In this document: positions 19,540 through 22,146 of the stretch, in pieces
Layout: the number at the start of each line of letters is the position of its first letter
Position numbering within the stretch: the first letter of the stretch is position 1
NCBI RefSeq assembly: GCF_009914755.1
Contig: NC_060933.1
From: the human T2T-CHM13v2.0 reference genome, Homo sapiens
Length of the DNA: 64,000 bases
Reading direction: 5' to 3' (one strand)
The notes under the pieces: model-generated
Told to the model about the DNA's origin: nothing
Seen by the model: only the letters and a program-made list of their open reading frames with translations
The model's database searches: none
Program-made: the position numbers and the translations under genes

Positions 19540-22146
19540 CAAGCTTACCTTGTTTTATTGCACTTCACTTTATTATGCTTCTCGGATATTGCATTTTTTA
19601 CAGGTTGAAGGTTTATGGCAACCCTGCATCAAGCAAGTCTACCAGTGCCACTTTTCTGGCAGCATGTGCTTATTTTGTATCTCTGTGTTACATTTTTGTA
19701 ATTCTTGCAATATTTCAAATGTTTTGTTATTATTATATCTGTTACGGTAATCTGTGATCAGTGATCATTGATATTACTATTGTCATTGTTTTGGGGCATC
19801 ACAAACCATGCTCCAAAAGACAATGAGCCTAACTGATACATATATGTGTCTGAATGGTTCCATCTATCTGCCCTTCCTCCATCCCCCCAACTCCTCAGGT
19901 CTCCCTGTTTTCTGAGACACAGGAATATTGAAATTAGGCCAATTAATAACTCTACAAAGGCCTCTATGTGTTCAAGTGAAAGTAAGAGTCACACATCTCT
20001 TATTTAAATCAAAAGTGAGAAATGATTAAGGTGAGTGAGGAAGGCATGTTAAAAGCTGAAACAGGCCAAAAACTAGGCTTCCTGCACCTAACAGCCAAAC
20101 TGTGCATGAAAAGAAAAAGTTCTTGAAGGAAATTAAAAGTATTACTCCAATGAACACATGAGTGGTATGAAAGTGAAAGAGACTTATCACTGATATGGAG
20201 AAGGTTTGAGTGGTTTGGATAGAAGATCAAACCAACCACAACATTTCCTTAAGCCAAACCCTAATCGAGAGCAAGGACCTAATTCTTCTTAATTCTCTGA
20301 AGGCTGAGAGAGGTTGGGAAGCCACAGAAAAAAGTTTGAAGCTAGCAGAGATTGGTTCATGAGGTTTAATGAAAGAAGTCTTCTCCATAAGATAAAAGTG
20401 CAAGGAAAAGCAGCAAGTGCTGATGTAGAAGCTGCAGCAAGTCATCCATAAGATCAGCTAAGAGAAGCAACAAAGGTGGCTACACTAAACAAAGGTTTTT
20501 ACTGCAGATAAAACAGCCTTATATTGGAAGAGGATGTCATCCAGGACTTTTACAGCCAGGTAGCAAAATAAATGCCTGACTTCAATGCTTCAAAGAACAG
20601 GATGACTCTTTTGTTAGGGGTTTAAGCTGAAGCCAAAGCTCATCTACCATTCTGAAAATTCTAGGGCCCTTAAGAACTATGCTACATCTACTCTGCCTGT
20701 GCTCTATAAATGGGACAAAGCCTGAATGACATCACATCTGTTACGACATGAATATTTTAAGCTCACACCTGAGAACTACTGCTTTAAAAAAAGATCTCTT
20801 TCAAAATATTATTGTTCATTGACAATTTACCTGGTCACCCAAGAGGTCTGATGGAGAACTACAAGAAAATTAAAGCTGTTTGTATGCCTGCTAATACAAC
20901 ATCCATTCTGCAGCCCAGGGATCAATGAGTAATTTAGACTTTCAAGCCTGATTATCTGAGAAATACATTTCATAAGGCTGTAGCCACCATGTATAGTAGT
21001 TCCTTCGATAGATCTGGGTAAAGTAAGTTGAAAACCTTCTAGAAAGGTTTCACCATTCTAGAAGCATTTGCAATTCATGGGAGGAGGTTAAAATTAAGAA
21101 CATTTGTGATTCATGGGAGGAGGTCAAAATATCAACATTAAAAGAAATTTGGAAGAAGTTGATTCCAATCCTCATGGATGACTTTGAGGGTTCAAGACTT
21201 CAGTGCAAGAAGTAACTTCAGATGTGGTGGAAATAGCAAGAGAACTAAGATTAAAAGATGTGAAGAGATCTTAAGATGTGGCTGAATTGCTGAAATCTCA
21301 TGACAAAATTTTAACAAATGAGAACTTGGATGAGCAAAGAAAGTGGTTTCTTGAGATGGAAACTACTCCAGGTGTAGATGCTGTGAACCTTGTTGAAACG
21401 ACAACAGAGTATTTAGAAAATTGCATAAACTTAGTGGATAAAGCAGTGGCAGGGTTTGAGAGGATTGTCTCCGATTTGAAGGAAGCTCTACTGTGGGTAA
21501 AATGCTATCAAACAGCATTGCATGCTACAGAGGAATCTTGAAAGAAATAGTCAACTGATGTAGCAAACTTCATTGTTGTCTTATTTTAAGAAATTGCCAC
21601 AGCCACCTCACCTCCAGCAGCTTCCACCATGATGAGTCAGCAGCCACAACACTGAGGCAAGGCCACTGACCAGCAAAAAGATATTGATGTTGAAGATTCA
21701 GGTGATCGATAGCATTTTTAAACAGTAAAATAATTTTTGACTAAGGTATGTACATTGACTTTTTTAGACATAATGGTATTGCCCACTTAATAGACTACAG
21801 TATAGTATAGACCTAACTTTTATATGCACTGAGAAACCAAAAATTCTGTGTGATTTGCCTTATTGCCATATTTGTTTTATTGCAGAACTGGCCACCAGAA
21901 TCTTCCCTTCCCCTAGAACGCCCTTCACCCAAGCCACCTGCATTTTCCCCTCACCCATCATACCCACCCCCATTGTCTGGCTTGCCCTCCACCTCCTCCA
22001 AAAGCCTTCATTGCTCCCCCACTGCTGGACTGCATTCTGACTCCGTCTCAATGTGGCTCAATGGCACTTCCATTGGGCACTGCCCTAAAGAGCTCATCTC
22101 CACAGTGGCCTGAAACCAAACCCACAGTATCTCTGAGGTATGCCTA
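19540..22146 (+). mobile_element. Near full-length Tigger1 (TcMar/pogo) DNA transposon, transposase decayed
   Basis: TA + CAAGCTTACCTTGTTTTATTGC 5' TIR; ...TCTCTGAGGTATGCCT 3' TIR; ~2.39 kb without the insert; transposase-like fragments (ORF 21278..21541). Confidence 0.92.
21886..22105 (+). pseudogene. Diverged SPATA31 exon-4 fragment inside Tigger1
   Basis: ~80% identical by eye to 26811-27026 ([22 protein letters not shown] vs [22 protein letters not shown]), with indels. Confidence 0.88.

What the first reader, a model, noticed from the sequence alone, without database searches (positions are those of the whole stretch)
21881..22146. SPATA31 exon-4 fragment captured near the 3' end of a full-length Tigger1, with splice sites on both sides
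Seen: the Tigger1 3' end (consensus ...TTTATTGCGG|TGGTCTGGAACC...) is split exactly at tttattgcag|...|tggcctgaaacc by 220 nt (21886-22105). The insert is ~80% identical to the gene's own exon 4 (26811-27026), in the same orientation and 4.9 kb upstream. CAG microhomology sits at both junctions, with no poly(A). The Tigger sequence supplies a good acceptor (tttgttttattgcag, 21885) and the TIR supplies a donor (GAG|gtatgc, 22137/8), defining a possible 252-nt cryptic exon. The SPATA31-like frame hits TGA at 22111. Inference: either Pack-type gene-fragment capture by a mammalian DNA transposon (rarely documented) or a templated insertion at a double-strand break. It preserves an ancient snapshot of SPATA31 sequence and could seed local recombination or small-RNA homology.
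Basis: partly seen in the sequence, partly recalled or inferred. Interest (0 to 1): 0.75.

Follow-up and report, generated by a model that had tools for sequence, protein, structure and literature searches.

The report
Old SPATA31 exon fragment inside Tigger1
A 220-base copy of the SPATA31 gene's own exon 4 really does sit inside an ancient dead transposon just upstream of the gene, and it looks like one more, unusually old, example of a known repair by-product rather than a new mechanism.

Summary
Window 21891-22104 matches exon 4 (26811-27026) at 82% over 218 columns, E 4.6e-55, with the low-complexity filter on or off. Twelve of 12 other Tigger1 3' ends run uninterrupted across the site where this copy is split.

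Genome-wide, the insert exists only in the four SPATA31A duplicons, each 4.9 kb upstream of exon 4. No other Tigger1 carries it.

Dating places the copy after, or at most at, Tigger1 integration: 0.75 of the element's age (95% 0.56-1.00). That is about three times older than the split between A-type and other SPATA31 paralogs.

An L1 target-site duplication, and an L1 tail shared by the paralogs, argue that Tigger1 already sat about 0.75 kb upstream of the ancestral gene.

Best reading: a single-lineage, in-cis "Pack-TIR", made by templated gap filling at a break or stalled fork. Tan et al. 2021 catalogued this class, including three human Pack-Tigger1, but not this case.

Mobilisation after capture has no support. 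The cryptic-exon, recombination and small-RNA ideas are untested or weak. The call is a new member of a known kind, of modest interest.

The parts
19540..21885 (+). Tigger1, 5' end through to the insertion site. The coding region is decayed and full of stops.
   Evidence: Collinear with 15 other genomic Tigger1 copies. p = 0.139 from their majority consensus over 2240 sites. Flanked by TA at the 5' side.
20788..20928 (+). Remnant of the transposase DDE domain.
   Evidence: Pfam DDE_1 PF03184, E 3.2e-8, 33.8 bits against a cutoff of 22.
21886..22105 (+). The 220-nt insert: a copy of SPATA31 exon 4. Homology runs 21891-22104, possibly from 21888. 21886-21887/21890 is untemplated filler. CAG is duplicated at both junctions.
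   Evidence: 82.1% over 218 columns, E 4.6e-55. Absent from 12 of 12 other Tigger1 3' ends. Present in 4 loci genome-wide.
22106..22146 (+). Last ~41 bp of Tigger1, including the terminal inverted repeat.
   Evidence: 89-98% identical to the termini of 12 other copies.
26811..27026 (+). Parental segment in exon 4 of SPATA31A6 (proline-rich N-terminal part of the exon).
   Evidence: Coding frame from the hub annotation. The same segment is present in the A, chr9:94.21, 105.05, 100.07, 100.29 and (diverged) E1-like paralogs.
22147..22299 (.). 153-bp unique spacer between Tigger1 and the L1. Its last 9 nt (22291-22299) are the upstream copy of the L1 target-site duplication.
   Evidence: The 9-mers at 22291-22299 and 23602-23610 agree at 8 of 9 positions, P = 0.0055 by simulation with 24 offsets.
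22300..23602 (+). L1 with an internal deletion: the 5'UTR part runs 22298/22300-23035 and the 3' end runs 23036-23568, followed by poly(A). It was inserted between Tigger1 and the SPATA31 promoter.
   Evidence: Aligned to three genomic L1 copies at about positions 26-770 and 5984-6518. The tail from ~23515 on, the poly(A) and the downstream duplication are shared by 4 of 4 non-A paralogs.
21871..21885 (+). Acceptor-like pyrimidine tract plus AG, supplied by Tigger1.
   Evidence: Read directly. An AG at the same place occurs in 8 of the 12 other copies printed. No expression data were available.
22135..22143 (+). Donor-like GAG|GTATGC in the Tigger1 terminal repeat.
   Evidence: Read directly. 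The same or a near-identical motif is in most of the 12 other copies. No expression data were available.

Best explanation
This is an old, single-lineage, in-cis 'Pack-TIR'.

A Tigger1 had integrated just upstream of the ancestral SPATA31 (A/C-type) gene, in the same orientation, about 0.75 kb from exon 1. Later, a break or stalled replication fork arose 41 bp from the element's 3' end. Repair synthesis switched template to exon 4 of the neighbouring gene, then roughly 3.1-3.4 kb downstream. It copied about 215 nt and switched back.

The return used a 2-nt CA microhomology. It left 2-5 untemplated bases at the other junction and a 1-3-nt duplication of the target (CAG). No Tigger1 sequence was lost.

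The element never moved afterwards. The fragment has decayed neutrally. It was carried along passively when the SPATA31A segment was duplicated around the chr9 pericentromere.

Shown here: the insert, its donor, the intact target site in other Tigger1 copies, its restriction to four duplicons, and its relative age.

Inferred: the repair mechanism, what caused the break (spontaneous or transposase-induced), and the lack of function.
For: (a) Insert and donor are real and specific.

(b) It is a clean interruption. Twelve of 12 other Tigger1 ends are contiguous at the site. No TE bases are missing and CAG is repeated.

(c) It lies in cis and in direct orientation, 4917-4925 nt from the donor in all 4 copies.

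(d) Only 4 loci genome-wide carry it, all with the same flanks.

(e) Age.
- Insert versus the A/non-A consensus: 37 of 216 sites differ, K2P 0.199.
- A versus non-A: introns K2P 0.070-0.081, exon 4 K2P 0.062-0.076, so the exon evolves about neutrally.
- Clock estimate of the capture: 0.118 substitutions per site (95% bootstrap 0.088-0.157).
- This Tigger1 copy: 0.157 from consensus, giving a ratio of 0.75 (0.56-1.00).
- Outgroup polarisation with the E1-like paralog: 15 insert-derived, 8 gene-derived and 8 ambiguous changes, so 0.60-0.74 of the changes fall on the insert branch.

(f) Ancestral adjacency.
- The L1 between Tigger1 and the promoter has an 8/9 target-site duplication, P = 0.0055.
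- Its tail, poly(A) and downstream duplication are kept by 4 of 4 non-A paralogs.
- So the L1, and by inference the Tigger1 153 bp upstream of it, predate the paralog split.

(g) The features match the class described by Tan et al. 2021: cis bias with most cases under 5 kb, microhomology with a median of 2 bp, and a small or absent TE gap. Of 97 primate cases, 91 had an empty orthologous TE in outgroups.
Against: 1. No other species could be examined, so an 'empty' orthologous Tigger1 has not been seen.

2. The upper bound of the age ratio touches 1.0.

3. The ML tree assigns almost all change to the insert branch (0.224, against a stem of 0.012). The bootstrap for the A/non-A clade is only 45 and the outgroup is very distant. 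Taken at face value, that would make the insert as old as, or older than, the integration.

4. The youngest of 15 sampled Tigger1 copies are p = 0.105-0.112 from consensus. The family was therefore probably still active at the estimated capture time, and a transposase-induced break cannot be excluded.

5. The breakpoint is near the terminus (41 bp). Tan et al. associate terminal breakpoints with excision-induced repair, although they also expect large deletions, which are absent here.

6. Bekpen et al. 2017 state that the 'L1P3' part of the SPATA31A promoter is not detected in New World monkeys while 'PA10' is. If so, the L1 is not one insertion, and my adjacency argument from its target-site duplication weakens.

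7. The four non-A paralogs and E1 show no trace of Tigger1 within the fetched 10-kb stretch that reaches 6-7 kb upstream of their genes. They therefore give no independent confirmation of the ancestral arrangement.
Confidence: 0.75

Rival explanations
1. Transposase-triggered capture at this locus. Tigger1 excised, or was cut, while the family was still active. The gap was repaired from the sister copy, with a detour of synthesis into the neighbouring exon 4 (abortive or aberrant gap repair). This gives the same product as the best explanation but a transposition-dependent trigger.
For: The estimated capture age (0.118, range 0.088-0.157) overlaps the divergence of the youngest sampled Tigger1 copies (p = 0.105-0.112). 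The breakpoint is only 41 bp from the terminus. Tan et al. predict terminal bias for excision-induced events.
Against: Excision-induced repair is expected to leave large internal deletions. Here no TE bases are missing and about 2.39 kb of element is retained. Most primate Pack-TIRs arose when the TEs were inactive: 22 of the 33 human cases. The point estimate puts the capture at 0.75 of the element's age.
Confidence: 0.15
2. True Pack-type transduplication with mobilisation. A Tigger1 picked up the exon-4 fragment before this copy integrated. The composite element then transposed (a local hop) to its present site upstream of SPATA31.
For: The ML branch length of the insert (0.224) is not shorter than the Tigger1 divergence (0.157), and the upper bound of the clock ratio is 1.00. 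The termini and the TA at the 5' flank are intact.
Against: There are zero additional copies genome-wide. Of 40 scored hits, 4 carry the insert, all in SPATA31A duplicons with identical flanks. With the insert alone as query, 10 of 10 candidates are insert or exon-4 copies. Transposed, multicopy Pack-TIRs are distal to their parents in Tan et al.. Here the parent is 4.9 kb away and in the same orientation.
Confidence: 0.05
3. RNA-templated patch (class 2 templated sequence insertion). A reverse-transcribed piece of SPATA31 transcript, from a germline-expressed gene, was used to patch a double-strand break in the Tigger1.
For: The junctions look like class 2 events as described in PMC5110952 (passages read): no poly(A), no duplication of 5 bp or more, microhomology, and a few untemplated bases. 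The donor is exonic, and the gene family is mainly testis-expressed according to Bekpen et al..
Against: Such insertions are described as coming from distant regions, seemingly at random. Proximity to the donor and the shared orientation are then a coincidence, unless nascent RNA acts locally. The fragment lies within a single exon, so no splice junction can prove an RNA origin.
Confidence: 0.05

Closest known systems
Animal Pack-TIRs, single-copy cis class (Tan et al. 2021, Nat Commun 12:4280, PMC8277862), including the human Pack-Tigger1 cases at chr10:36.34 Mb, chr13 (CCDC169) and chr5 (NDUFS4/RAB6A)
   Same: A TIR transposon with both termini encloses a short non-TE fragment. The parent lies a few kb away on the same chromosome. 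Microhomology is about 2 bp and little or no TE sequence is lost. There is a single locus lineage and no sign of transposition afterwards.
   Different: This case is much older: 82% identity to the parent, against their cutoff of 90% or more. Its parent is multi-copy because of later segmental duplication, which violates their unique-hit rule. The breakpoint is near the terminus rather than internal. The case is not in their list of 33, and 'SPATA31' and 'FAM75' have 0 occurrences in the 11 supplementary files searched. I did not find their relaxed list of 199 among those files.
Class 2 templated sequence insertions / TSIPs (Onozawa and Aplan 2016, PMC5110952)
   Same: A short templated patch at a break. 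The donor is left intact. There is no poly(A) and no long target duplication. Microhomology and a few untemplated bases mark the junctions.
   Different: Those events come from distant loci and are thought to pass through RNA. Here the donor is 4.9 kb away in cis.
Plant Pack-MULEs and other mobilised transduplicates
   Same: A gene fragment sits between the ends of a DNA transposon.
   Different: Pack-MULEs are typically amplified and dispersed. That statement is from my own knowledge and from the abstract of PMC8277862 seen. This element shows no copy outside one duplicon lineage.

Membership tests
Tigger1 (pogo-like Tc1/mariner DNA transposon) | Termini and body collinear with other genomic copies, length about 2.4 kb | tested here: met
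Aligned with 15 copies over 2240 sites, p = 0.139. About 2387 bp without the insert, against a consensus length of 2418 in Tan et al.'s table. No repeat library was available.
Tigger1 (pogo-like Tc1/mariner DNA transposon) | DDE transposase coding remnant | tested here: met
   Pfam DDE_1 E 3.2e-8 on window:20788-20928. Of the other 7 frame pieces tested, none gave a match above its curated cutoff.
Tigger1 (pogo-like Tc1/mariner DNA transposon) | TA target-site duplication | tested here: inconclusive
   TA precedes the 5' end. The 3' end is followed by TG then TA. This is compatible with a mutated TA but not clean.
Pack-TIR (criteria of Tan et al. 2021, Methods passage) | Both flanking TE parts cover at least 10 bp of the consensus termini | tested here: met
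   The 5' part is 2346 bp and the 3' part is 41 bp, reaching the terminus shared with 12 other copies.
Pack-TIR (criteria of Tan et al. 2021, Methods passage) | Internal sequence has a parental copy that is not itself flanked by the TE | tested here: met
   The parent lies inside exon 4. Only the 214-216 nt match, and no Tigger1 sequence lies beside it.
Pack-TIR (criteria of Tan et al. 2021, Methods passage) | Identity to the parent at least 90%, and a unique best parental hit | tested here: not met
   Identity is 82%. There are 4 near-identical A parents plus further paralogs. These are detection cutoffs aimed at young cases, not mechanistic features.
Pack-TIR (criteria of Tan et al. 2021, Methods passage) | Length of the internal sequence is 80-120% of the parental segment | tested here: met
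   214 nt against 216 nt aligned.
Pack-TIR (criteria of Tan et al. 2021, Methods passage) | Not a retrocopy (no intron loss) | tested here: inconclusive
   The fragment lies within one exon, so intron loss cannot be scored. It has no poly(A).
Mobilised (multicopy) Pack element | Copies at unrelated loci with independent target-site duplications | tested here: not met
   Only 4 copies exist, all with the same left and right flanks inside SPATA31A duplicons.
Class 1 (L1-mediated) templated insertion | Target duplication of 5 bp or more, a poly(A) tract, and a TTTT/A site | tested here: not met
   The duplication is 3 nt at most and there is no poly(A).

The most novel reading that the evidence does not exclude
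The capture pushed Tigger1's own acceptor-like and donor-like motifs 252 nt apart. In an intact element they are only about 32 nt apart. The most novel reading is that this exon-sized interval is actually used in the germ line, either as an upstream exon or as part of a transcript with homology to SPATA31A. That would give the SPATA31A core duplicon a lineage-specific regulatory element that the C-type paralogs lack. A related bold reading is that transposase cutting triggered the event while Tigger1 was still active.
Probability: 0.05. Interest if true: 0.6.

Novelty: new member of a known kind. Interest (0 to 1): 0.3.

Why it matters
As a mechanism it adds nothing new. It is one more fossil of templated gap filling inside a DNA transposon, a class already catalogued in humans.

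Its modest value is as a time-stamped marker for the history of the SPATA31 core duplicon.

- The fragment split from the gene about three times earlier than the A/non-A paralog split. This implies that Tigger1 and the gene were already neighbours by then.
- The A-type upstream region is therefore the ancestral one. The C-type and pseudogene copies lost it at a breakpoint in the L1 tail, next to an Alu.
- The fragment preserves an independent, near-neutral record of about 215 nt of a fast-evolving exon. It can help polarise substitutions on the stem of the primate SPATA31A/C lineage.
- It shows that published Pack-TIR scans, with cutoffs of 90% identity and a unique parent, miss old cases and cases inside segmental duplications.

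Tried and rejected
1. Chance or low-complexity similarity: rejected (E 4.6e-55 with dust on; genome-wide specificity).

2. Assembly artefact: rejected. Four duplicon copies carry the insert at 99-100% identity with identical junctions.

3. Looking for an 'empty' paralogous Tigger1 in the human genome. Eight further chr9 pericentromeric paralogs of the left flank plus the Tigger1 5' end exist, at about 92% identity. All eight end at window-equivalent 20071, where an Alu fragment and then unrelated sequence follow. They say nothing about the 3' end.

4. Looking for Tigger1 upstream of the non-A paralogs and the E1-like paralog. There are no hits to window 19400-23512 in the 10 kb fetched for 4 of the 5 loci. 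In the fifth, the only hits are its own exon 4 and one weak L1 match.

5. ML rooting of the insert with the E1-like paralog. The outgroup is too distant (branch 0.59). The bootstrap for the A/non-A clade is 45, and the stem length is unreliable. I relied instead on a clock argument with locus-matched neutral rates.

6. A GGTGG microhomology 10 nt beyond the donor end was considered as the real return point. Using it would require a later 10-nt deletion, so I treated it as chance.

7. A first automatic scan for window-only columns in the Tigger1 alignment missed the insert, because MAFFT spread it out. Thirty-nine of its 220 columns fell on consensus positions. The insert was therefore excluded by coordinate in the final divergence figure.

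9. Bekpen et al.'s Additional file 3 (promoter repeat map) is a PDF that could not be read. It may already show this Tigger1.

10. No RNA, small-RNA or cross-species data were available.
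Full report
**What is there.**
- The window is T2T-CHM13 chr9:43,710,001-43,774,000.
- From about 19540 to 22146 (+ strand) lies a decayed, essentially full-length Tigger1. 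It is collinear with other genomic copies, p = 0.139 (K2P 0.157) from the majority consensus of 15 copies over 2240 sites, and keeps a DDE_1 transposase remnant (E 3.2e-8).
- Forty-one bases before its 3' terminus the element is interrupted by 220 nt (21886-22105).
- BLAST of 21800-22200 against the window gives one non-self hit: 21891-22104 to 26811-27026, 82.1% over 218 columns, E 4.6e-55, unchanged with the low-complexity filter on.
- According to the hub annotation, 26811-27026 lies in coding exon 4 of SPATA31A6, in the same orientation and 4920 nt downstream.

**Is the Tigger1 really split there?**
- I fetched the 3' ends of 12 other Tigger1 copies from the same genome.
- In 12 of 12, the sequence runs straight through the point where the window copy is interrupted.
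- Their alignments to the left and right flanks overlap by three bases. This is the CAG that stands at both junctions in the window.
- No Tigger1 base is missing.
- Compared with the donor, the right junction shares CA with exon 4. At the left junction, 2-5 bases have no evident template.
- There is no poly(A).

**Distribution.**
- A whole-genome search with the junction-spanning 291 nt scored 40 of 96 candidates.
  - Four cover the full query at 99-100%: chr9 39.37, 41.25, 43.73 and 78.77 Mb.
  - Six are exon-4 copies at 80-82%.
  - Thirty match only the Tigger1 terminus.
- With the insert alone, 10 of 10 candidates are the same four inserts plus six exon-4 copies. The two C-type genes were not returned by that search, although they align well.
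- Each insert lies 4917-4925 nt upstream of an intact A-type exon 4.
- All four share both flanks.
- So there is no evidence that the composite element ever transposed.

**Paralogs and locus history.**
- Exon-4 paralogs sit at chr9 94.21 and 105.05 Mb (both with stops), at 100.07 and 100.29 Mb (intact, C-type by position and structure), and at 100.04 Mb (a distant E1-like copy).
- Homology between the A locus and the four non-A copies starts only at about window 23513.
- Nothing from window 19400-23512 is found in the 10 kb fetched at each of those four non-A loci or at the E1-like locus, a stretch reaching 6-7 kb upstream of each gene.
- Window 22298-23035 aligns to the 5'UTR of L1 copies (about positions 26-770). 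Window 23036-23568 aligns to their 3' end (about positions 5984-6518), followed by poly(A). This looks like one L1 with an internal deletion.
- The 9 nt before it (22291-22299) and the 9 nt after the poly(A) (23602-23610) agree at 8 of 9 positions, P = 0.0055 in a simulation allowing 24 offsets.
- All four non-A paralogs keep the last ~90 nt of this L1, its poly(A) and the downstream duplication. In them this stretch is preceded directly by the poly(A) of an Alu.
- Hence the L1 was present before the A/non-A split. By the target duplication, the sequence it inserted into was continuous with the Tigger1 flank.
- I conclude that the A-type upstream region is ancestral, and that Tigger1 lay about 0.75 kb from exon 1 before the L1 arrived.
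- Caveat: Bekpen et al. 2017 (PMC5338094; passages and section 5 read) call the two parts L1P3 and L1PA10. They say P3 is not detected in New World monkeys. Their repeat map (Additional file 3) is a PDF I could not read.

**Dating.**
- The consensus of the four inserts differs from the consensus of eight A/non-A exon copies at 37 of 216 sites (26 transitions, 11 transversions; K2P 0.199).
- A6 versus the non-A loci: introns K2P 0.070-0.081; exon 4 K2P 0.062-0.076. The exon therefore evolves at about the neutral rate.
- A clock calculation gives 0.118 substitutions per site since the copy was made (95% bootstrap 0.088-0.157).
- For comparison, the A/non-A split is at 0.037 and this Tigger1 is at 0.157. 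The capture is therefore at 0.75 (0.56-1.00) of the element's age.
- Polarising with the E1-like paralog gives 15 insert-derived, 8 gene-derived, 8 ambiguous and 6 unscorable differences. Corrected for E1's own change, 0.60-0.74 of the differences fall on the insert branch.
- An ML tree places the inserts outside the A/non-A crown, but with a bootstrap of 45 and a very short stem, because the outgroup is too far.
- Other Tigger1 copies in my sample range from p = 0.105 to 0.164, with one at 0.239. The family was therefore probably still active around the estimated capture time.
- Absolute dates are not computed here. Giordano et al. 2007 (PMC1914374, passages) place Tigger1 near the divergence of mammalian orders.

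**Mechanism.**
The following all match the single-copy cis class of Pack-TIRs described by Tan et al. 2021 (PMC8277862; passages, all of section 8 and Supplementary Data 4 read):
- a clean insertion in cis and in direct orientation;
- 2-nt microhomology, a few filler bases and a 1-3-nt target duplication;
- no loss of element sequence;
- no dispersal.

They attribute this class to transposition-independent gap filling by template switching. That paper lists 33 human cases, three of them in Tigger1. It has no entry for SPATA31 or FAM75 in the 11 supplementary files searched. Its cutoffs (90% identity or more, unique parent) would exclude this case.

The junctions also resemble class 2 templated insertions (PMC5110952, passages). 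Those, however, come from distant loci. I cannot tell whether the initiating break was spontaneous or transposase-made.

**Function.**
- The acceptor-like and donor-like motifs exist but are generic to Tigger1 ends. The insert merely moves them 252 nt apart.
- No exon is annotated there.
- The frame that starts SPATA31-like ends at TGA 22111. It loses the SPATA31 reading after a 1-nt insertion.
- The longest exact run shared with exon 4 is 18 nt, and the copy is in sense orientation. Recombination or small-RNA roles therefore look unlikely, in my judgement.
- No expression data could be consulted.

**Verdict.** The specific case does not appear in print in the searches made: the text and supplement searches of PMC8277862, and its Supplementary Data 4. 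It is useful mainly as a marker of the SPATA31 duplicon's history.

Noticed in passing
window 17370-20071; L031-L038: The left flank plus the first ~530 bp of this Tigger1 has eight further paralogs on chr9 (39.8, 39.9, 40.9, 44.1, 44.3, 78.27, 78.33 and 80.3 Mb) at about 92% identity. All eight stop at the same point (window 20071), where an Alu fragment and then unrelated sequence follow. All eight lack the Alu at window 18668-18966. This is a separate, older pericentromeric duplicon module.
   Followed up: partly
window 22298-23602: The SPATA31A 'promoter L1' looks like a single L1 with an internal deletion: the 5'UTR is joined directly to the 3' end at 23035/23036. It is flanked by an 8/9 target-site duplication. 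The literature describes it as two elements (L1P3 and L1PA10) that integrated at different times.
   Followed up: partly
window ~23513-23515; L021-L024: All four non-A SPATA31 paralogs share the same upstream homology boundary, inside the L1 tail. It is directly preceded by the poly(A) of an Alu, which suggests one Alu-associated rearrangement in their common ancestor.
   Followed up: partly
window 21066-21091: A 26-bp stretch inside this Tigger1 has no counterpart in the 15 other copies compared. By eye it looks like a local tandem duplication.
   Followed up: no
window 51388-52229 (- strand): A second, partial Tigger1 copy, 76% identical to 19546-20390.
   Followed up: no
L023 3580-4006 and 7051-7478; L024 2460-2886 and 5950-6376: The C-type loci carry a tandem duplicate of the promoter/exon-1 region. 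This agrees with Bekpen et al. 2017.
   Followed up: no
G000:C5:180077248-180077338 and 180204883-180204973 (L041, L042): Two chr5 loci match about 90 nt of the same exon-4 segment at 75-76% identity. They may belong to the C5orf60/SPATA31J gene mentioned in PMC12679747, but this was not verified.
   Followed up: no
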